Both the position numbers and the translations under genes were made by a program. Below the pieces are notes generated by a model, which was not told the origin of the DNA, did no database searches, and worked only from the letters and a program-made list of their open reading frames with translations. A stretch of 56,933 bases of DNA, filler included, from Platydemus manokwari (taxonomy: Eukaryota): assembly GCA_037951405.1 (NCBI GenBank). It is 4 parts of 4 records of this genome, joined end to end, with 100 filler letters (N's around TTAATTAATTAA, not from the genome) between each part and the next. Parts side by side here need not be neighbours in the genome. Positions count along the whole stretch, not along the records: positions 42,028 to 56,933 come from JBBMOY011374758.1; 3 more parts are not named here. The stretch is one strand, 5' to 3'. Of the stretch, positions 38,401-56,933 are shown one piece after another (the first letter of the stretch is position 1; every line of letters begins with the position of its first letter).

Positions 38401-39730
38401 AGTTCAATTGACGTAATTTGTTTAATTTAATTAAATTTAAAATAGAGCAAATTTATTAAGAATTTTATTATCAATATTAGCCTTAATTTGGACCAAGGAT
38501 TTAAATTCAATGAATATTCAAACAACACACTCTAATATAACCTTTTTATTCGTAATTAACTCGCATTTATTTATTAATTATTTTATTTAATTAATTATTT
38601 TTATTTAATAGTCGATAATAAATAATAAAACCACTCCCTAAACATATGGATAGAAAAACCAAAATGCTTGAAGAGTCATCCAATGATAATTTGAGACAAT
38701 GATTATTTTGTTTAAATTTTGATTGTTGCTGTGTATTCTATGTTGATGAAGTTTAGTGAAGTATTTTTATAATATAAGTTTAGGATATTTCATTGGTGTT
38801 TAGTGTTTTCGTTGTCGGATCTTTGAATAGTTGAGTAATTTGTTGATAAATATCTTGGAATCGCTATAAATTCCACAATTATGATAATATAATTTTTAAT
38901 GAATTCCTAATCGATATCTTTACTGATTGACTCACGTGCTTGTCTGTATGTCTGTGAAAGCTAATAAAGGATTTTCGAAGTAGTTAATATATTAATTGTG
39001 GTACTATTGAAACTTAACCTACTCTTTTTCTAACGTTTCATTATATAGATTCACACTGAATGAACAACTTTTCCTGATTACTATGTTTTATTTATTACAA
39101 CAATTTTACAGCATATTAATCTCCCCGGGTACAACTCTGATAAGAATTAACAACTGTCCAGAAGTTAGAACACAGTCAAAAATTTCTTTTGACTATACCA
39201 GTACAAACACTACTTCTTGCTGCTATCACTGATTACTCCTGTAACTGTTAGGGTCTCAATAGCACACTCGTTAATTAATTTAAAGTCTCATCTACTTACA
39301 TTGTAATTTTAATTTCTAAAAATAAGCTCAGAAGTGATATTTCTTTTGTTCCAACTGCCCATTTCTTAGATAATACCAAGATGAAATTGAATCATTTTGC
39401 TCATCATTATATCAATCCTTATTTTATGTTAATGTGTATCCATTTATTTTATTTTGTCATAAAGGCTATAATAATAATTATTATTATTATCATTATTATT
39501 AGTTATTTAATTATTTTTTTTAATTATTAATTATTTAATCAGCACATTAATCATTATATTGTTATATTATTGAATTATATTTTATTGGTACTAGTTTTTT
39601 AATAACTATAATTAATAATAATGAAATTTATATAGTAAAAACATAAGTTGTTTCCATCAATATTTTATTTTATTTCAAAATCACACGCGTTTGTTTTTAA
39701 TATTAAAACAAATCTCATTTTTGTTATCTA

Positions 39731-41927
39731 ACTTCCCTCTCCCGTTGTTTTTGAGATCCTTTTTAACCACTCAATTCTTCGAGATTTTGGCTGCCCCTGG
39801 AAACCAAGGAGGACTTGATGTGGGCTTAAAAATTTCAAAACTCTCTGAGAACTTTCATAACGATCTCCATTCTTCTTTATCTTGTGTAGTTCTTTCTTCA
39901 CTAAAACTTCTTCTCCAACTGTGAAAATTCTACAACCTCTTTTTGTAGCATTAAATTTCTTTAAGTTTGTGCCTACTGATTTTAGCTGGTTTTTTGTTTA
40001 TTGGATGATCTGGTCGTGATGGCTTGGTTCATTTAGTCGTGGACATTAATTCTTCGTCCAAACAATATTTCAAAAGGAGAATGTTGAATTGAACTTTGAT
40101 AGGTTGCATTGATGATAAATTTTATCCGCGGTATTAATTTATCCCAAGCCTGTTTCTCTGATGCCATCGTTGTTATCACCATGTCTCTCACCGTCCTAAT
40201 CATCCTTCGGTTAAGCCATTTGTCTTATGTTGGTAAGGAGAGACAAATTCTTGTTTAATTCCAAAACGTATCACTAATTCTTTCATTTCCCTTCTTTCGA
40301 AGACTCTACCCCGATCAGTGAGCATTGATTTTGGGGCATTATACCTATAGATCCATTTATCAATTATGGACTTGGAAATATTTGTTTTGTCTTGTCGAAT
40401 AAGTGGCACCAAGCCTACTAACTTACTGAATCTATCTACAATAACCAACAGATACTTGGTTTTAGTCATAAATTTCGCAAAGTGCGCAACATCTACAACG
40501 ATCTGTTACAGAGGACCAAACCCTTCCTTGGGGATCTTAATCTCTTTAGACTCTCCAGTGTATACCTTCCATTTAGCACAAATATCACAATTCTGTATTC
40601 CATATTCAATGCTTCGTGACAGATTCGATCAGAAGTAAATTTTTTGAATGTAATCAACCAATTTTTTATTACCAATATGCCACAACTCCTCATGAAGGTA
40701 TATTGTAAGTTTCTGCAAATAAACCTCTGGTACAACAATTAGCTTCTTTCCATTCTTATTATACACCACCATATCTTCAAACAACTCATATTTCTCTAAA
40801 CTGTTAAAATATTTGCTTTTCTTGACCACTAAATTAATTTCTGTTCCTGATTTCCCTAACCATTTTTGAATAGAACCAACGACACTTTCTTCTTATTGAA
40901 TCTTCCTTAGTTCGTCATTATTTGCAATTGAATGCTCGACAACATTAATAAACCGGCTTTTTGGTTTACCTTCTTTAGCTGAGTTAAGCATTGTGAACAA
41001 AATGCTTCACCTATCCTTGAAAGTACATGTGCATTTCTATGATCTGATCCTTTCCGATATTGAAGTTCGAAATTGAACCCGGATAAGTTTGAAAACCATG
41101 TTTGAAACTGAGTGCTTATCAGTTTGTTATTTTTTATAATGTATGTCAAGGCTTTGTGATCGGTGCGAGTCACAAATTTCTTTCCCAACAAATAATGTTT
41201 AAAATACATAGTAAGCTTGTGGATTCCCAAAACTCTTTCCTCGTGACGCAATAACTTTTTTCATGATTGTTAAGAGTTCTAGAACCATTGGCCACTACTA
41301 TCTCTTTTCCATTGTCATCCAGCTGACTTAGAACACATTAAATCGCTCCGAAACTAGCATCCGTGTCTAAAATCATCTCTTTGTTTGGATCCTGAAAGGC
41401 CAAAATCCTTAAGGTTTCCAAAACTTTCATCACAATCTGTACTCCACTCCAATTTCTAGTCACTTCCAGTCATCGTCGCATATGACGGAGCCGTAATAAA
41501 TGCATAATCTTTGATAAATCTTCTGTAATAATTGCATAATCTTATGAACGACCTCAATTGAATGATACAACCAGGTTCTATTGCTTCCTTAATCTTCTTT
41601 ACTTTGCCGTTATCAGTTTCTAAACCTTCTGCACTAACCGTATGACCTAGGAAATTCAATTTTCTGGTACCAAAAGTGCATTTCTCGGGATTGATTTTCA
41701 AACCTGATGATTTAATTAACCTGAATATCTTTTCGAGTTTCTCATTGTGTTTCTCTACCGTTCTTTCATACACTAAAATATCATCCAGATAAGCAAGAAC
41801 ACTTTTGTAAATCGAGTCCTTGAATATAGTATTCATTCTGAATCGTTGCGGTACATAATCCAAAAGGTAGTCTGTTAAAACAGAACTGCCCAGTTCTAGT
41901 GCTGAAAGCCGTTTTCATTTTAGAATC
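39731..41927 (-). mobile_element. Decayed Ty3/gypsy LTR retrotransposon, pol region to polypurine tract (5' part lost in gap)
   Basis: Domain order RT-RNaseH-IN. RT: KTAFST..FCFNRLPFG, LAYLDDILVY, INPEKC, FLGH. RNase H: DTDAS..VLSQ, FKHYLLGKKFVTRTDHKAL. Integrase: HEELWHIG, VIVDRFSK, LTDRG, SPYQHKTNGLTE. PPT GGGAGAGGGAAG at 39732-39743. Multiple frameshifts. Confidence 0.95.
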
Positions 41928-47652: not shown

Positions 47653-48859
47653 TCCTCGTTTAGCTGTCCCTAGATTTTAAATATTTATGGCTGAAAATGC
47701 AAATATGGCTGTAGGTTGCGATAATAATACTATTGATTCCACAAGGCAGTGTAAACCTTTATATTATTAATAATATGTCAATATATAATCAACATATTAT
47801 GATCAAAATAACACAAAATAAGATCAATAAAATACATTCCAGATGATAATAACAAAGTAGATTTCATAATGATTGAATTACTTTCCAGCTAAAGTATTCT
47901 TAATTATTGCATATTATAACGAGATCGACATAGTGTCAACTTTGCTTACCAATGCATGCGTTGGAGAAAAATATAAGGCGGTGTTGATAATTTTTTGAGT
48001 CTTATTGATATAAATGAACAATAGGTGAAATGTGATGGAACGATTTATGGACTAGAATTATTAAGTTTTAGACAAAATAACAATGACCGCTGTGCATTAT
48101 TAAATGGGTTGTAAAAATGAATTGTAGAAACGAACTGGATTATCGAATATCCAAAAGGGATTTTCTTCAATCAACCTCATAGTGTGTACAGACAATACCT
48201 CAATGACATGAAATATGATCGTAAATTGTGTTGAAATTTATTAAGAAAATCATTTCCGAAATTCGTTTGTGCTTTATTTCATGTTTCGTTGTTAGTTTGA
48301 TAGTAAATATAAAGATTAAAAATCTGGTATTTCTCGATACAAAAAATTTCGTTGCTGTGGATATATTGGGTGTCAAGTGATTGATTAATGAGTTAGCAAG
48401 TTGAGAATATTATCAGTAGATCTTTGTAATTCTTATAATTATAATCATAATTATTACTAGTATTATTATCATTTTTATTTAATTTAATAATAATAATTAT
48501 TATTATTATTAATATTTTAATTATTAGACATTTTCTACTCTATTAACTAGAGTGCTTTGATAAATAAGGATTAATTAATATATATTAATATTATTCGAGT
48601 TTTAAGGAAAATCTCGTGATAATAAATGATATATCTGACATTCTTGCTCACTGAAGTTTTAGAGATGCCGATATTTTGTTTCTTTTGCCAAAAATAGTTT
48701 GTTGGAAATGACCAACAGATTTTGTAATAATTTTTTCAACCCAAAAAATACTTGAATTGTTGACACATAATGGAAAATGATCATTATTATTTATGAGGAT
48801 TATTATTTTTAAATGAAATTGAATTTTTATTTACAATAATGTACGATTTTGTTTTCCAG

Positions 48860-48999
48860 CTCGACAGATTTAAGGAGCCACCAGCATATGGTCCTATGTG
48901 TGATCTACTGTGGTCAGATCCTTTGGAAGATTTTGGCAATGAGAAAACGTCGGAGCATTTTTGCCACAACAGTGTTCGCGGTTGTTCATACTTTTTCAG
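48860..48999 (+). CDS. PPP3CA: Internal exon of calcineurin A (PP2B catalytic subunit, PPP3C/CanA family)
   Basis: 140-nt exon flanked by TTTTCCAG and GTGATT, encoding [46 protein letters not shown], nearly identical to animal calcineurin A. Neighbouring exons were not found in the window. The symbol denotes the family, not a resolved paralogue. Confidence 0.95.
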
Positions 49000-49563
49000 G
49001 TGATTAAAATCATTATTTTTGTACTTACCTTGATATTGATTAGTAAGGGTAGCCGTTAATGATATTTATCAGTAAAAAAATGACAAAAAAATTATTTCAA
49101 ATTCACTCCATTGTTTATGAAATTGTTATTTATCAAGGAAATCGACCAGTCAAATCGAAACATAAATAATATTTCTCTCAAAAATATGATTGCATGATTT
49201 CGTTCTCAATTTATATGATTCTATTTTATGTTCTGTATTGATTTTTATAAAATTATTTTTCATTAATGTTTATTAAAACACACACACACACACACAAAAG
49301 AAACAGAAATATAAATAATATGAAGTTTAGATTATAATTTTCTCTTCTTTATCTCATAGATTTTATTTTTATATTTATTTTGTTGTATCTTATATTGCGA
49401 GTGGATAACTGTTTTGCTTGTTCATATTTATAATACCACCAGGTGTTTTCAAGGTGAATTTATGCTCATTTATTTATGCATTTCTAATTATTCTTGTTTG
49501 TTATCACATTGTTTTATTGATAAAGTTTTGATTTTTGAAATTTTATTTAATTTCTTTCGAAAT

Positions 49564-49854
49564 ATGAAATAATAGTAATAATAATAATAATAATGATCAC
49601 TATAATGACAATAATAATGATAATAATAATTATTATTATTATTATCACTATAATGATAATAATAATGATAATAGTAATTATAATGATGATGATGATGATA
49701 ATGTTAATAATAATAATAATGACAATGTTAATAATAATGGTGATAGTAATAATAATGATCACTATAATGATAATAATAATGGTAATAGTAATTATAATGA
49801 TGATGATGATAATAATGATAATAATTATTATTATTACAATGATAAAAGTAATAA
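49564..49854. repeat. Degenerate (AAT/GAT)n trinucleotide tract with internal duplication
   Basis: AAT/GAT/AGT triplets; blocks such as ATCACTATAATGATAATAATAATG and ATAGTAATTATAATGATGATGATGAT recur. Confidence 0.9.
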
Positions 49855-50562
49855 TGTTGGGTCTACCGACTGTAGAGCGCAACAGTTCTCGTAATCACCT
49901 GACTCAAAAATCAAAACAAAGTTGTTGCTCACTAAGTTATATTTCTACAAAATTTACAACTTAGATTTAATTACACAAGGACCTAGCCCCTAATAAAGTT
50001 CTGTCAACAAAATACGGATCAGGTCCGTGCACCAAATTGAATTACTGGCCGAGGACTACTCCTGGTCTATACTACAATACCAGCGTGCGTAACGGTTTAC
50101 GGACGCTCAATATACTCTTCGATACACTACCGATATTCGGAGGCACTGTCCGCGAATATCACTATACAATTTAAATACTAATATTCGGGATTCACTATCC
50201 ACGAATATTCTACTACTAGATAATTTACTGTTTCCAATATTCGGGAATGCTTCTTCCTCGAATAATACACTACTTGCTAAAAATAAAAAGAAATAACCTG
50301 ATTCTTCTAGGCTTCTGATTAAAAACAAATCAAATCTTCTTTTGCAAATTCAAATTAATATTCTTCTTCTAGGCTTCTGATAAAATCCAAATCAAATCTT
50401 CTTTCTTGCTCCTGATTAATTGTTCTGATAGCTTTTTCCTTGCCTGGTTCTGCTAATTGTGACTTGTTCTCCACAAGTCCGTCTTTTTATACTATTCTTG
50501 TGCTCGCACCACTTGCAGCACATTTTTCTAACCTGAGTTGGCATGTAGGTTCAACGCCTACA
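49855..50562 (-). mobile_element. Solo-LTR-like element (708 bp) with internal hairpins and direct repeats
   Basis: Locally GC-richer block bounded on the minus strand by TGTAGG...CCAACA. TATAAAAAG box ~70 nt from the 5' end (50481-50491). A ~43-bp direct repeat at 50301 and 50363; three related hairpins at 50132-50266. No TSD found. Confidence 0.5.
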
Positions 50563-50992
50563 TTTGGATCAATATCACCCGATATTGATCGACAATTACT
50601 GTCTTGAAATCTTGGATTCTATTTAATTATTTTACTTTGCTAAAACAAATTTTATTTTCTAAATATAATTTAAAATTTCTTATTTCTCTTTATTTATCAA
50701 ATATTTTTTTCTTATTAAAAATTTAATTTTAAAATTATTTTTATACTTTATTTATTTTTAGAAAAATAAATTTATTTCCTTTATCTTTAGACTTATGTTT
50801 ATTCTTTAATAATTCACTCTTGTTTATCTTTAATTATTTTTAAAATATGAACTCTTCATTATTATTATTATTATTGTTATTATTATTATTAATATTATTA
50901 GGCGGCATAATAAAACGTTATACGACCTTAAAAATATATAGAGAAATAGGATAGTACAATACATATTTTTAAAAAGTGGTTCTAAACTCAAC

Positions 50993-51700
50993 TCAAAACT
51001 CAGTTCCTTTAACATTTAATACATGTATTTGAACATCAACATTTTCATTGAAAAAATTCTCCGCTTCAGATCGAGTAATCATATCGACAGAGTCCTCCGA
51101 TTCGTCACTCATAATTTCGGTACTCGGTGCAGATACATAGAATCTCGGAATGGGAATCAAATTCTCTTGATTTTCGAAACGATAAGGAAAGTCTTGATCT
51201 TGTTGTCGAGTTTGAAATTTAAATAATTGTTTGTATTCGTTAGAATTTCTACGATTAACATAATATTCAATATCATTATGTATAAGTGGCAATTTCAAAC
51301 ACACATAATGCGGAGTAATTATCAGATAATCAGCAAAACACGCAGGATTAAAACAGCACACAGGCAAAAATCCATGCTTATTTTCATGTCGTGGATAATG
51401 AGGATTACATAAAGTACATGCTTTGTGAAACATAGAATAACTTATACGCTTTACAGTAACCATGCGCTAATTAATACATTGACCAAAAGTATGTTTATTA
51501 TAAAGATTATTATTACAACTAAAACATTTAATCTTCGAAACATATTTTCGTTTACAAATCAAAGGTCGAGATAAAATCAATTGTTGGATTCCGACATTCG
51601 AGCGTCTCCATCGTTCGTATCGTCCAACGTTGGCGATTCCATTTTCAAGGCCACTGGGGTAAGTATGGATTTTCCATTGGCGAGACTGAAGAATCCTTAA
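50993..51700 (-). pseudogene. Cys/His-rich ORF downstream of Rep, one internal stop; function unknown
   Basis: Track ORFs 51467-51754 and 50993-51463 are in the same frame, separated by a single TAG. They contain CFSC...HKACTLC..H...CCFNPAC and an acidic C-terminus (SDESEDS). Start codon uncertain. Confidence 0.55.
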
Positions 51701-52755
51701 TGTACAATAAATCATCAAATTTATGCACGACAGTTCGCCTCTCGATTGCTGCACGGTGTTCTAATAACATTTTGGGCAAACCAGCATCCCAATTGTTGGT
51801 TTTAATAATCCTAGACATGAACATGGGTATTTCTGTGTACCCGTATTTAATATTGCACGAATATTGCCTTTTGAGATCACAAAGGTGGATAATTTCCGTG
51901 GCATGAAATCCCTTGAGCGTAAAATCATCAAAACTATATCATCTGTGATGGAGGGATCTTGTGATACTCGAGATAAGTTTTGAGAACAACTGGCCAAAAT
52001 TGGATTATTAAAATGAGATAAAGCATAATTAGTTTTCTCGATTCCAGTATGCCCTTGAAAGATGTGCGTTCTCCCATCTCATACATTTAAAGGAGGATTT
52101 TTGAACTTGTGATAATTTTTTTTGGCTGGCTCTCCATAATGAGTTGTAAGAGTTTCATTTATAGCTTTTCTTTTAAGCATAAATTCTTTCGGGTCAGAAG
52201 TTCTCAACAATAGCATTGCTTCATTTTTATTTTTACAATTATAGGCCATCCGCCATGGATTATTACAATCAACATCTTTGATTGAATTTGAAGAAGAACC
52301 AGATTGCCCGTCATTTGCCATTGTATTTTTAAAAAAAACACTCGTTGCTTTGACATTATCGAGCCGCTTATTGGTAGTTGTACCCAATTGACTAATTTGA
52401 ATTGGAGGATATTCTTTCAATCTGGTTTCGTCTTTTTGCGTGTACTCAAAAACTTTAATTTTATCTTTACCTGAAGATTAAAACAACGATAATTAATCAT
52501 AACCAAATTATCCCCAGAATTAACCAACCTGGATTTGGTTTCACTTAGTTGACTCCCAATAAGTTTCTGGCCGTGCCGAAAAACATGGCATACTTCATTA
52601 CTAGAAATATTGCACGTGTTCGAAATTCTTTTCAGACATTTCAACTTGCCCATAGAAATAGGTGCAATTTTTGGTCCTTATTTCCATAAATTTGTCTCGC
52701 ATCAACTCGAAATCATCATTATTATTATTATTATGGATTCGACTTGCTATCGCTT
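51645..52755 (-). pseudogene. rep: Endogenous CRESS-DNA-virus-like Rep (HUH endonuclease + SF3 helicase), decayed, with one putative intron (52471-52528)
   Basis: Reconstructed motifs in the canonical order: motif-I-like RIHNN; YFYGQVE; motif II EHVQY (52610-52618); motif III EYTQKDETR (52433-52444); Walker A GHTGIEKT (52031-52054); Walker B IVFDD (~51930); IIHLCD..NIKY..IP; motif C IIKTN; Arg finger AIERR; stop at 51645. Two in-frame stops and two 1-nt frameshifts. Confidence 0.88.
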
Positions 52756-54582
52756 ATTAATTCACTTTAGTAATTTTTTGATTTGAAGACGTTATATTAC
52801 ACTTAATACTTTGAAGTTTATTTTAATTCATAGCGGCTTTTAAAATTTATACAGAAATTCTGGTTAAAGTTAAGAAGTGAAATCCTAAAAAAATTTGAAA
52901 TTTGTTGTTTGTGTTGCAAAAAAGTTTATTTAATTATACTGATTAAAAACATTTTGAATTTTTTATTTGAGTACCTAAGCAGAATTTTAGTTGTTTGGAA
53001 TCAAATATTAAATAACTAGAGCTTTAAAATCTTGTAGAAATTGATTATTTAAAAAACGGCTCAAAGTATGCCAAATAGCAATTTATTGAAAATTAGTGAT
53101 AACCACATTTTTAAAATCGTTAATCCATATTTTTAAACTTTGTTTTATATTAAAAGTGATTGGAGAAATAATAATGCATCGAAATATAATCGGTGCCGAA
53201 ATATCATATTGAAACTAATGAGGTCTTCTTCGAAAGGGTAAAGTGTAAGCGCGATGGACGAAGACCAAGTATTTGGGTTGCTGAAGGATTCATATGATGC
53301 AATAAGAGGAATTTCAATCGAATTCCAGAAATTTTATGTGAAAATTTTATATAATAACGTTAGAAATAAATTTTGAAATTAAACACACGAAAATTTATGA
53401 ATTTACTTAACCGAAATTCTTGATGAAATTAATCCACATTATTCTTGAATAATTATATTTTGTACATATTATAGTAATATATATTCCTAAACAATTTTCA
53501 TTGATAAAATACCAATTTTCAAACCAAAACACATACTGATCATGAATCGTGGGCTTGACTTAAGTAAGATTGAATTTAATTTTATGAAATGATAAGATAA
53601 TATGACTGATATTGAGAATGATTGTAAATTGTGGATAAATCCATTTGTATTCAGTGGAATTGATTAATTCTAAAAATAAAACACATCAAAATATAACAAA
53701 TCAACTTTCATATACAATATGAAATTATTTTGGAAGAGTTAAGAAAATTATTTAATTGCTATTTCAATAAAGATAAACAAATCTCATTTGCCCTTAAACT
53801 ATATCCTTAAGCATCATTTGTGTACTCAATATCAAATTGCAACGAATTATACTAGTCGTCTCATAATGCTGGTATAATTTTTTGTATCTATCGATAATTA
53901 GATTAATTTTATAACAGAATGAATATATTTCGATATTTCGTTTTGGTTTATTTTTGAAAAATATAAGTTCTACAATACTAACGAAAAATCAGACAATAAT
54001 ATTCGATGAAGACTACCGCTAATGATAATAATATTACATGATTACATAAATCATCAATAAATCCCATTAATCCCATAAATTGTTCAGGGAAATTCGGCTT
54101 TCGCTTTGTTAATAGTAAATATATTACCCATGAAATATACAATGGTTTCCTGTTTCAATAAATTAAACATCTTTTACTGATTATTTCTGAAGAATTTAAT
54201 TTCTAACAAATACTACATGGTTTGTTTTAGATAAATTTCATTTAATTTTATTCTCGAATTTTTATCTTTTTGAAATGGATTTTTAAATATTTATTTAATG
54301 AAAAATTTATTATTTATTAGTGATTTTCTAAGTCAACGAGGCTCTTGCTAGAAATAAAATTGAATAAAATTTATTGAATAAATATTATATTTATTGAAAA
54401 CAATACAAAGGGATTTTATTAGATTCTTCATCCCCATTTATAATAACACCAACACATACAATTTATAATAAATGTAGTATGTTTCGTAAACATTATCATA
54501 ATATATATAGTAAAAACATCGATTGTTTGCATCAAAATTTATGGTTTCTAAAATAACACGAGTTTTTTCGCATATCTAAAGT

Positions 54583-54668
54583 TTATCTAACCTTCTCTCC
54601 CGTTGTTTTTGAGATCTTTTTAGCGATTCAATTCTTCTATAATTTGGTTGTTCCTGGTAATCAAGAAG
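54583..54668 (-). mobile_element. Second fragment of the same gypsy family (PPT/3' end)
   Basis: TTATCTAACCTTCTCTCCCGTTGTTTTTGAGATCTTTTTAGCGATTCAATTCTTC closely matches 39724-39810. Confidence 0.8.
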
Positions 54669-55469
54669 CGGGAATTTAATAACTCAATTTTTTGAATTTT
54701 TTGCTGGTTAATTTACTTTTAGAAACTATATATAAGAACAGCTATTATTAAAAATCTTATGCCTCTTTTCCTCACTCAGTTGAGGCCTAGATATATCTTA
54801 AATTGGATTATAAAAGTCAAATTCGAATCCTCAAATATGTAATTATTATTTTATTTTATTAATTTTTAATAACTTTACCATAAAAATAAAAACCTGTCAT
54901 TATAAAAGTGATAATAGAAACGAGAATAGTAACAATGGTAATAATAATGATAATACAAATAAAACACAAATTACAAATAAATAAAACTCTGATATTTGCG
55001 ATCAATGGTTGATCGTTCCATAATTAAGCTGATTGTAACCCAGTAGCAAAAACACAGTTCATTAATTGCTACATAAGCTATTGAAAATGCAATTAAATTT
55101 CACAACTAGTGTTATTTTCTTTTTATAGCTTAAATAATTTATAGGAACCATACCTGGATAATAGAATTAATAACCTCTCTCGAGGAGGACAGTTTGAATA
55201 ATCTTAATGTGCTGATATTAATAAAATAAAGTTTAAACATATTAGGAAATTTCGTAAAGGAAATATTAATAATAATTTTTAGCCTCTACTATTTTAAAAA
55301 CCACTCATTAAAAATAAACTGAAAAGTCAAGACACCACAAATCTATTTTAATACAAATAATTAAACAAATAAATATAATTTTATATAAATATGATTTTAT
55401 ATTAAATCCGAATTAAATTATAAATAAAATTTTAATTATGTAAAATTTTAATTCACAAAAAATTTAATT

Positions 55470-55480
55470 TAATAATAATC

Positions 55481-55523
<43 letters not shown>

Positions 55524-55562
55524 TAATAATAATAATGGTAATAAACACAATAATGATAATAA
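55470..55562. repeat. (AAT)n microsatellite
   Basis: Near-perfect AAT run. Confidence 0.9.
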
Positions 55563-56156
55563 TTATAAATTTATTGTTTCTATATCATTTGTTATAAAAT
55601 TTAAAGTTTTACTCAAATTGACATCAAGTAATAGTATAGTGATCAACTTATGATCAAGTCTAGTTGAATTCCGTAATACAACGGCGTCATCTGGTGTCTC
55701 GAAAGAAGTCCAGTATATAGAAAACATGCATAAGGAACAATATTAAACTCTTGTATCAATAAAGAGTGTTTCCCGAAAATTATTTCTCAAAGATTTTGAT
55801 TTAAAAGAATTAATCAGAAAATTAAAGATGATTTACACTGAAAATTGTTCCTGGAAAACTTTTAATCGTAGATATTTAAGGCGCATTTCGAAATAATTTT
55901 TTAAAATAATTTTTATTAAGAATTAAGTTTTGAGATAAAGATGTTCTTGCCGCTTTACTTTTAATTTGTTAGAATAGTTGAAAGACTAGGTAATTGACAG
56001 ATAATCTTCTATCTTCCGTGGCATTGAGATATATCGATTTTCATTGGTTTGCAATAACTGACGATGGTATTCTAACAATAAGTTGATATTTTGGAGACAT
56101 CTGTTAAGTTTCTGGTACGTGCACTATTTGAGTATGTGTATATTGACCCTTTTTGG

Positions 56157-56523
56157 CAGCGGTTCTTAGTCTTTTATCTATGGCGACCCATTTTTCCATT
56201 TTTAAGGTCTCGGAGACCCCAAAGAACATCAATATTACTAAATATAACTAAATATCATTTGATTTACATTTCATTGATTTACAACAAGTAATGAATTACC
56301 TATTATAATAAGATTATTATTATTATTATTATTACATTGCCTATAAAATACTTAACTGTAGTAGTCAAGGTAATCGTGAACAGAAGTAGTTTAGTCAACA
56401 TCACAAACTATTTATTTAATAGCATCATAAAACATGATTTTTCACATTAAATGGTTTGTACACCTACCATAATTTGGCGACCCCTTTAAAAATGCTTACC
56501 GATTCCGGGGTTGAGAACCACTA
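56157..56523. mobile_element. hAT (Charlie-like) MITE
   Basis: Termini CAGCGGTTCTTA / TGAGAACCACTA with subterminal GGCGACCC motifs at 56182 and 56476. TSD not evident. Confidence 0.65.
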
Positions 56524-56529
56524 AGGGTT

Positions 56530-56933
56530 ATTTCATGGTCTTTGTAAGTATTAAGTTGTTTTAATCAGAATCTCTTCAACGGTGTCAACTATCGAATTGA
56601 TATTTGGATTTTTGTTATTGCATTATACATTTGAAGTTAATTTGGATGTAATATTGATTTTAAATTGGATTTTAATTCTGATCTACTTTTAGTAATACAA
56701 TTCGTTTTAATGTATATGAAAACAGACTTAATTAGTGATTTCAAATGACATTTAAAATTAAAATGAAAGAATTAGCATTTAAAGTCTCTGGAAATTTACT
56801 TCAATTTTAGTATTCTCACATCCCCCTTTCTTTAAAATCTTTAATTTTCTTTGTAGTCTTACTTGACATATTTATCTCCGAAAATGTCTTTAATTTCTCT
56901 CCCTTTTATATCTTTTCTAAATCTTCTTTATGT
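56530..56933 (-). mobile_element. Probable PPT and start of the 3' LTR of another LTR retroelement
   Basis: Minus strand reads AAAAGAAAGGGGGA|TGTGAGAA with the junction at 56821/56820, a classic PPT-TG boundary. The other end of the LTR is undefined. Confidence 0.45.

What the first reader, a model, noticed from the sequence alone, without database searches (positions are those of the whole stretch)
50993..51700. Capsid-less Rep + Cys/His-rich ORF cassette: candidate novel Rep-based element
Directly behind Rep on the same strand, overlapping its end, is a frame of more than 200 codons broken by a single TAG. It has zinc-ligand-like spacing (CFSC...C...HKACTLC..H..H...CCFNPAC...H..C) and an acidic tail. 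It lacks obvious jelly-roll capsid features as far as I can judge. A unisense Rep plus Zn-finger-like gene pair suggests either an unusual virus accessory gene or a non-viral replicon/transposon built on a CRESS Rep.
Basis: inference. Interest (0 to 1): 0.7.

Follow-up and report, generated by a model that had tools for sequence, protein, structure and literature searches.

The report
Fossil virus Rep with zinc-binding partner
A broken replication gene of the kind used by small circular DNA viruses lies in an animal-like genome right before a second broken gene with no known relatives, likely a zinc-binding helper protein rather than a coat protein; diverged copies of the pair exist in the same sequencing run, so it is likely an old viral fossil of an undescribed lineage, with a smaller chance that it is a new coat-less jumping element.

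Summary
A 255-codon minus-strand frame (51760-50993) with one TAG follows a decayed CRESS-type Rep (HUH nuclease, oligomerisation domain, SF3 helicase; E about 1e-19 to an unclassified McMurdo-pond virus Rep). The frame, its Cys/His content and its acidic tail exceed chance. One correction: the part overlapping Rep is probably not the gene, which likely starts two bases after Rep's stop in another frame, so it has a second break. No relative was found in Pfam, PDB, 5.8 billion proteins, 1.84 billion representatives or 51 Rep-bearing loci. The fold prediction failed (pLDDT 30), so a capsid is unlikely but not excluded. Contigs of one run hold at least three other copies, 13-19% diverged, in which this gene stays next to Rep; the few listed differences avoid second codon positions. 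No capsid gene, origin hairpin, termini or target duplication was found. Best reading (0.5): the Rep-strand arm of an unclassified ssDNA virus with a zinc-ribbon/acidic accessory gene, like geminivirus AC2, endogenised several times. A capsid-less Rep transposon (about 0.2) is not excluded.

The parts
51645..52705 (-). Decayed CRESS-type Rep gene in several frames: HUQ motif II (His at 52618), motif III Tyr (52444), oligomerisation domain, degenerate Walker A (about 52054-52031), Walker B (about 51930), motif C and arginine finger; stop at 51647-51645. Its 5' end may reach about 52790.
   Evidence: tblastn E 3e-19 to P0002 and 1.9e-20 to P0044; a profile of 26 related Reps matches positions 28-222 (E 8e-22) and 228-306 (E 3.5e-14) of 306; motif positions
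52471..52528 (-). Candidate 58-base GT...AG intron between Rep motifs II and III (inferred)
   Evidence: His-to-Tyr distance is 174 bases here against a median of 40 residues (range 36-63, n=56) in relatives; GT and pyrimidine-rich AG ends
51577..51642 (-). Likely true start of the second gene: ATG two bases after the Rep stop, 21 acidic/polar codons, in a frame other than the Cys/His frame
   Evidence: sequence; 51574-51680 is kept in another copy (table 8)
51431..51576 (-). Variable 5' part of the second gene, holding CFSC...H...C, the TAG at 51469-51467 and the frame change from the start segment
   Evidence: falls below 80% likeness in two other copies; one has 168 letters in place of 143 (table 5)
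50993..51434 (-). Conserved core of the second gene: H-x2-C-x2-C-x17-C-x4-C zinc-ribbon-like cluster, further His/Cys, acidic tail, stop at 50995-50993
   Evidence: covered by three other copies with 43 of 326, 67 of 406 and 33 of 170 other letters (table 8)
50855..50900 (.). (ATT)n microsatellite just downstream of the second gene; the element's 3' boundary probably lies between here and about 50990
   Evidence: other copies' matches end at 50986
49860..50620 (.). Neighbouring abundant repeat with four short hairpins and a 62-base-period duplication; no protein family, no capsid similarity; a link to the Rep cassette is not shown
   Evidence: summed contig depth 400-16,600 against 11-16 for unique contigs
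52835..53191 (.). Neighbouring very abundant repeat upstream of Rep, with a second copy at 19591-19758 that has no Rep beside it
   Evidence: summed depth up to 112,000; blastn E 1e-23; no Rep profile match near 19.6 kb
48860..48999 (+). Host context: internal exon of an animal-like calcineurin A gene; the cassette likely lies in the following intron
   Evidence: phmmer E 3e-27 to calcineurin A alpha chains, weaker to fungal ones; no further exon found by motif scan

Best explanation
This is a broken, chromosomal Rep gene of CRESS-virus type followed on the same strand by a second broken gene, likely the Rep-strand arm of an unclassified circular ssDNA virus that entered the germ line, with the second gene likely a zinc-binding accessory protein and not the capsid. 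In the living virus Rep would nick the origin with its single-tyrosine HUQ nuclease, assemble through the oligomerisation domain and unwind DNA with the SF3 helicase (domains shown; chemistry from established knowledge). The second protein likely started just after the Rep stop and is predicted to bind zinc through a four-Cys ribbon plus further His/Cys. With its acidic tail it would work like geminivirus AC2/TrAP, as a transcription or silencing regulator (inferred from position and layout only). The capsid gene would have lain on the other strand and was likely not integrated or was lost. Several related genomes were likely integrated, or copied with Rep's help, while still under coding constraint. 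The copy in the window is broken in both genes.
For: Rep architecture and relatives: named relative; unclassified. 43 of 51 Rep-positive loci carry a long opposite-strand ORF; Pfam of 8 large non-Rep ORFs picked as capsid candidates coat proteins (L024, L027, L012). Chromosomal location: exact contigs at depth 11-16, one bridging Rep and the flanking host repeat, next to a calcineurin exon. Gene pair kept in other copies: records 1 and 4 hold both genes, record 3 probably too (joint at the same depth). Of 11 listed differences in coding parts, 7 are at third, 4 at first and 0 at second codon positions. The C-x2-C-x17-C-x-NP-x-C spacing occurs in open frames in 14 of 23 viral-contig matches, several in long phage ORFs. 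AC2 layout of Cys/His middle and acidic C-terminus on Rep's strand: PMC8062710 (passages). Capsid-less, multicopy Rep+accessory fossils: PMC5014472 (passages and conclusion). Invertebrate fossils found were all rep-derived: PMC6069186 (passages).
Against: No free virus with this gene pair was found: none of the 51 Rep loci has a relative of the second gene. There is no sequence similarity to AC2 (Pfam 0 families; AC2-type pattern not matched) and no basic N-terminal segment. The nearest Reps (P0044 and three Reps in a 58-kb contig) are not known to come from capsid-bearing small genomes. All displayed copies cover the same two-gene span, which a transposon would also give. The codon-position count rests on 11 of 383 differences. 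No origin hairpin was found.
Confidence: 0.5

Rival explanations
1. A capsid-less mobile element: a CRESS-derived HUH+SF3 Rep acts as a rolling-circle transposase and the zinc-binding protein is its cofactor; the family spread in this genome and left diverged and internally deleted copies.
For: At least four copies 13-19% apart keep the same pair; record 1 is about 0.5 kb shorter internally (384 letters for 892). One contig at depth 691, about 45-50 times the unique depth, matches Rep in two short pieces in order, and about 640 of depth covers some 35 bases of the second gene's tail (tables 2, 3, 5). A candidate intron lies in Rep. No capsid in the flanks. The nearest Reps include three without a capsid neighbour. 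The yam paper proposes such a turn to transposition (PMC5014472 conclusion).
Against: No terminal repeats, target duplication or terminal hairpin were found around the cassette. The abundant flanking repeats are not shown linked to other copies; the second copy of the right repeat has neither Rep nor the left repeat beside it. The high-depth matches are only 35-55 bases at 80% likeness and may be chance or a free virus in the sample. Introns also occur in viral Reps (recalled for mastreviruses and genomoviruses).
Confidence: 0.22
2. The second frame is not a separate gene but a zinc-binding C-terminal extension of Rep, joined by splicing or read-through.
For: The best-scoring relative P0044 has a 97-residue tail after the helicase with two H-x2-C-x2-C motifs, the only Cys-containing tail among 16 listed Rep tails.
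Against: P0044's tail does not align significantly with the second gene (E 1.0). Rep ends in a stop followed two bases later by an ATG, and this junction is kept in another copy.
Confidence: 0.1
3. The pair is a fragment of a larger DNA virus or element that had captured a CRESS Rep, and the second gene is one of that carrier's own small zinc-finger genes.
For: A 58-kb, 33-35% GC metagenome contig holds three Reps of this helicase type among unclassified genes; they group with the window's Rep and P0044 at local support 0.81. Rep capture by poxviruses is published (PMC10193959, passages).
Against: No other large-virus gene was seen in the window's long ORFs. Support is weak and long AT-rich branches may attract. 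The carrier nature of that contig is my impression, not a database result.
Confidence: 0.1
4. The second gene is a very divergent capsid gene of a unisense circular genome of about 1.9 kb, so the insert is a near-complete ordinary viral fossil.
For: Its size (about 215 codons) suits a small capsid; unisense second ORFs occur in 4 distinct contigs among the 51 loci; the fold could not be tested.
Against: Cys 5.1% against at most 3.0% in 43 likely capsids, an acidic start and tail, and no similarity to 228 non-Rep ORFs of related genomes beyond short chance hits; no capsid family in Pfam or PDB.
Confidence: 0.08

Closest known systems
Rep of McMurdo Ice Shelf pond-associated circular DNA virus-2 (YP_009047130.1; unclassified ssDNA virus) and its metagenomic relatives
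   Same: HUH-oligomerisation-SF3 layout and the same helicase subtype; 24-37% identity, E 3e-19
   Different: That genome has a 290-aa Arg-rich ORF on the opposite strand and no Cys/His gene behind Rep; the window's Rep is broken and has a candidate intron
Endogenous CRESS/circovirus-like elements (CVe) of invertebrates (Dennis et al. 2018, PMC6069186; passages read)
   Same: Divergent Rep remnant in an animal-like chromosome without a recognisable cap
   Different: Here a second, non-capsid-like gene is kept with Rep in several copies; the paper's Table S3 was not seen
Yam endogenous geminivirus sequences EGV1/EGV2 (Filloux et al. 2015, PMC5014472; passages and conclusion read)
   Same: Multicopy Rep plus one same-strand accessory gene, no coat protein; transposon-like behaviour proposed
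   Different: Plant begomovirus origin, ren partner, EGV1 keeps an origin hairpin and near-intact rep; here a different Rep lineage, an orphan partner, no origin, decayed
Geminivirus AC2/C2 (TrAP) (PMC8062710; passages read)
   Same: Same strand as Rep, Cys/His cluster in the middle, acidic C-terminus
   Different: No sequence similarity, no basic N-terminal segment, longer, more Cys/His; an analogy only
Replitrons (Craig 2023, PMC10288648; parts 1-2 of 7 and passages read)
   Same: Eukaryotic, chromosomal, single-tyrosine HUQ Rep with oligomerisation-like domain and introns
   Different: Replitrons lack a helicase and have short direct terminal repeats; they were reported from algae, plants and protists. 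Here an SF3 helicase and a second gene are present
Helitrons (as described in PMC10288648)
   Same: Rolling-circle HUH logic
   Different: Two-tyrosine Rep fused to an SF1B helicase; here one tyrosine and SF3

Membership tests
Cressdnaviricota-derived endogenous element | Y1 HUH/HUQ endonuclease motifs II and III | tested here: met
   profile match from position 28 on; HVQ at 52618 and YxxK at 52444; motif I not clearly seen
Cressdnaviricota-derived endogenous element | Fused oligomerisation domain and SF3 helicase | tested here: met
   helicase pieces score 144 and 119 against shuffle maxima 49 and 47
Cressdnaviricota-derived endogenous element | Integrated in host DNA | tested here: met
   calcineurin exon 2 kb away; exact contigs at unique depth, one bridging Rep and flanking repeat (this run may be the assembly's source)
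Cressdnaviricota (complete virus) | Jelly-roll capsid gene | tested here: inconclusive
   none recognised in the second gene or flanks; fold model unusable, pLDDT 29.9
Cressdnaviricota (complete virus) | Origin stem-loop with nonanucleotide | tested here: not met
   a nonamer-like word near 52792-52800 has no stem of 7 pairs or more; hairpins lie only in the left repeat; consensus word recalled
A named cressdnavirus family | Rep falls in a family clade with reference members | not tested
   no family reference set was fetched; nearest named relative is unclassified; tree of 89 retrieved Reps only
Replitron | Rep without helicase | tested here: not met
   SF3 helicase present
Replitron | Short direct terminal repeats | tested here: inconclusive
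   ends undefined; only microsatellite-like repeats flank the cassette
Helitron | Y2 Rep fused to SF1B helicase | tested here: not met
   single YxxK and SF3 helicase
Any transposon | Dispersed copies with shared precise ends, and empty sites | not testable with these tools
   no genome held; contigs show at least three other copies but not their ends
Geminivirus AC2/C2 | Sequence homology, basic NLS, CCHC finger, acidic activation tail | tested here: not met
   no Pfam match, pattern not matched; only the Cys/His middle and acidic tail are shared
RING, PHD, LIM, CCHC knuckle, C2H2 fingers | Canonical ligand spacing | tested here: not met
   0 of 5 canonical patterns matched; loosened LIM and knuckle patterns did (patterns recalled)

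The most novel reading that the evidence does not exclude
An undescribed class of animal rolling-circle transposon: a capsid-less two-gene element whose transposase is a complete CRESS-virus Rep (Y1 HUQ nuclease plus SF3 helicase, with an intron) and whose second gene is a new zinc-ribbon protein, with a young subfamily of some 45-50 copies in this genome. It would be a third eukaryotic HUH transposon group beside Helitrons and Replitrons, and a direct virus-to-transposon transition.
Probability: 0.2. Interest if true: 0.78.

Novelty: new variant of a known kind. Interest (0 to 1): 0.38.

Why it matters
As a viral fossil it ties an unclassified CRESS lineage, known from ponds and metagenomes, to an animal-like host, and shows that such viruses can carry a same-strand zinc-binding accessory gene with no database relative. 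That is useful but modest. If the copies prove to share ends and to have moved without a capsid, it would make the proposal that viral Rep genes can turn into transposases (raised for yam, PMC5014472) testable in an animal genome.

Tried and rejected
Second gene, no relative found: Pfam, 0 families at E 1; 5.8-billion word search, 0 of 42 candidates; 1.84-billion representatives, 0 hits; PDB sequences, 2 chance hits at E 1.7; ORFs of loci L001-L039, best E 0.4; loci L040-L080, no tblastn hit; earlier findings, none. No language-model look-alike result exists for it, so remote relatives remain open. The single-sequence fold gave pLDDT 29.9, so no fold search was run. A Cys/His spacing scan of viral contigs gave 23 matches, none with a Rep nearby.

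Rep pieces alone found nothing in Pfam, phages, plasmids, the word search, viral contigs or PDB. The Atlas gave only leads under 0.9. P0044 found no locus in viral or metagenome contigs. Two lineage patterns gave 15 phage chance matches.

No RNA holder listed. No Rfam match in 48000-56933. The left repeat as a decayed capsid or third gene was rejected: its lowest stop count is ordinary (431 of 2000 shuffles) and no family matches. The TAG as a splice acceptor was considered; I saw no strong donor in matching phase (by eye), so this is left open. An 8-base word near both ends was dismissed as chance by a rough estimate. Window plus P0044 as sisters has support of only 0.22; the first tree run failed at display.

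Paper searches for a described capsid-less CRESS-Rep transposon or a zinc-finger partner gene listed none; I saw only their listings, except the six papers opened. The library lacks most subscription journals, and no supplements were read; the element could be listed in supplements such as Table S3 of PMC6069186.

Full report
Observation. The frame is there as described: minus strand, 51760-50993, 97 codons, one TAG at 51469-51467, then 157 codons. It is more than chance: 0 of 2000 shuffles gave so long a run and 0 of 2000 so few stops. The core has 16 Cys+His in 90 residues, a level reached by 4 of 3675 windows of the six frames. The tail is acidic, 11 D/E against 2 K/R in 45 residues.

Setting. 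The window is AT-rich eukaryotic DNA; no whole genome is held. An internal exon of an animal-like calcineurin A gene lies at 48860-48999 (E 3e-27). A motif scan found no later exon, so the cassette likely sits in an intron. One public run holds the stretch. Its exact contigs have depth 11-16 and one bridges Rep and the flanking repeat, so the cassette is chromosomal; that run may be the source of the assembly. Both flanks are abundant repeats (summed depth 400-16,600 on the left, up to 112,000 on the right; summed depth is not a copy count). Neither is shown to belong to the cassette.

The Rep. Its pieces alone matched nothing. A degenerate helicase pattern fetched 39 viral loci, mostly small genomes with Reps. 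Because the pattern came from the helicase end, the independent evidence is the extension of the match upstream: the oligomerisation domain and Walker A region (E 2e-12) and, with 59 further proteins, a profile match over positions 28-222 (E 8e-22) and 228-306 (E 3.5e-14) of 306. The nearest named relative is the Rep of McMurdo Ice Shelf pond-associated circular DNA virus-2 (24-37% identity, E 3e-19), an unclassified virus. The best-scoring relative is the unnamed singleton P0044, first of 99 for both helicase pieces, second for motif II and fifteenth for motif III; it was found with a query that included the window's pieces. In a FastTree tree of 89 Reps and 185 columns, the window, P0044 and three Reps of one 58-kb contig group at local support 0.81; window plus P0044 has 0.22 (one sequence without a clear Walker A was left out). 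The window's Rep has stops and frame changes in both halves and a degenerate Walker A. The span between motifs II and III is 174 bases against a median of 40 residues in 56 relatives, which fits a 58-base GT...AG intron at 52528-52471 (inferred).

The second gene. It has no detectable relative: Pfam, 5.8 billion proteins, 1.84 billion representatives, PDB, or 228 non-Rep ORFs of the 51 Rep-positive loci among the first 80 fetched, some of them duplicates. The fold failed, pLDDT 29.9, so a capsid fold is untested. Composition argues against one: Cys 5.1% against median 1.1% and maximum 3.0% in 43 long opposite-strand ORFs. Canonical RING, PHD, LIM, knuckle, C2H2 and AC2 patterns (recalled) do not match. 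The core spacing C-x2-C-x17-C-x-NP-x-C occurs in open frames in 14 of 23 viral-contig matches, none near a Rep. That supports a generic zinc ribbon, not a family. P0044 has a Cys/His tail fused to its helicase, but the similarity is not significant (E 1.0).

Other copies (likeness from 80%; only 8 of 3789 pieces are displayed). Three contigs at unique depth carry the second gene with 67 of 406, 43 of 326 and 33 of 170 other letters; Rep pieces differ by 19 of 114 and 18 of 107. The threshold truncates these figures. Records 1 and 4 hold both genes; record 3 probably does, by a joint at its depth. Record 1 is about 0.5 kb shorter inside, and a contig at record 4's depth has a one-base gap at 51287, so other copies look decayed too. 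Of the 11 listed differences in coding parts, 7 are at third, 4 at first and none at second codon positions (40 of 383 rows were shown), a weak sign that copies diverged while coding. The stretch 51435-51573, with the CFSC motif and the TAG, drops below 80% in two copies, so the conserved core begins near HKACTLC. One 30-letter loose end shows changes that are silent in Rep's frame but missense or stop in the finding's frame, so the overlap is probably not part of the gene. An ATG two bases after Rep's stop, in another frame, is the likely start, which implies a second break. One contig at depth 691 matches Rep in two short pieces in order, and about 640 of depth covers some 35 bases of the acidic tail. 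This may be a young multicopy relative, a free virus or chance; it could not be followed up.

No origin or ends. A nonamer-like word near 52792-52800 lacks a stem; hairpins lie only in the left repeat. No terminal repeats or target duplication were seen beyond (ATT)n runs. The left repeat shows no coding signal.

Mechanism. Shown: a CRESS-type Rep with nuclease, oligomerisation and SF3 parts; a real second gene tied to it in other copies; chromosomal location; decay. Established knowledge: such Reps nick an origin and drive rolling-circle replication (PMC10288648, parts 1-2 read). Inferred: zinc binding; a regulatory role like geminivirus AC2, which lies on Rep's strand and has a Cys/His middle and an acidic C-terminus (PMC8062710 passages); loss of an opposite-strand capsid gene; repeated integration or Rep-aided copying. 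Capsid-less fossils are common: all new elements in a 675-genome screen were rep-derived (PMC6069186 passages), and yam EGVs keep rep plus ren in many copies without a coat protein (PMC5014472). I give this reading 0.5, a capsid-less transposon 0.22, a Rep extension 0.1, a fragment of a large carrier 0.1 and a divergent capsid 0.08.

Comparison. It works like the Rep-strand arm of a CRESS virus and resembles the yam EGVs in content. It is not a Replitron (helicase present) and not a Helitron (one tyrosine, SF3). It cannot be placed in a named family. PMC6668415 (passages) and PMC10193959 (passages) gave background on HUH replicons and Rep capture by poxviruses. Earlier AI notes on other genomes report similar fossils and small Rep introns; I did not check them.

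Verdict. A real, decayed, multicopy endogenous CRESS-type element with an orphan zinc-ribbon-like partner gene: a new variant of a known kind, interest 0.38. The transposon reading (about 0.2) would deserve 0.78 and can be settled by mapping the ends of the natural copies.

Noticed in passing
L065:3586-4407, L079:3419-4489 and L079:4648-5763 (contig Ga0160429_1000276, 58 kb): Three Rep genes of this helicase type (one lacking the nuclease part) with no capsid neighbour, among paralogous membrane-anchored ORFs and a P-loop kinase-like ORF without database family; looks like a large DNA virus with captured Reps (my impression).
   Followed up: partly
P0044 residues about 300-398: A CRESS-type Rep with a C-terminal extension bearing two H-x2-C-x2-C motifs; singleton in the protein collection.
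   Followed up: partly
window 40203-41914 (-): Broken LTR-retrotransposon pol remnants: reverse transcriptase, RNase H and integrase (Pfam E 5e-14, 3e-9, 7e-12).
   Followed up: no
window 16789-17730 (-): Intronless 314-codon ORF with several hydrophobic segments that looks like a seven-transmembrane receptor, yet has no Pfam or NCBIfam match.
   Followed up: partly
window 49860-50620: Abundant repeat with high-depth ends, a lower-depth middle with variable tandem duplications in other copies, and two adjacent hairpins at 50543-50590; a short Cys-rich peptide frame starts near 50545 on the minus strand. Class not determined.
   Followed up: partly
window 52835-53191 and 19591-19758: Two diverged copies of a very abundant AT-rich repeat.
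   Followed up: partly
window 49520-49895: Compound ATA/ATG microsatellite array between the calcineurin exon and the left repeat.
   Followed up: no
window 4305-4390, 5889-5967, 55262-55351; and 39625-39811, 54500-54668: Two further small dispersed repeat families.
   Followed up: no
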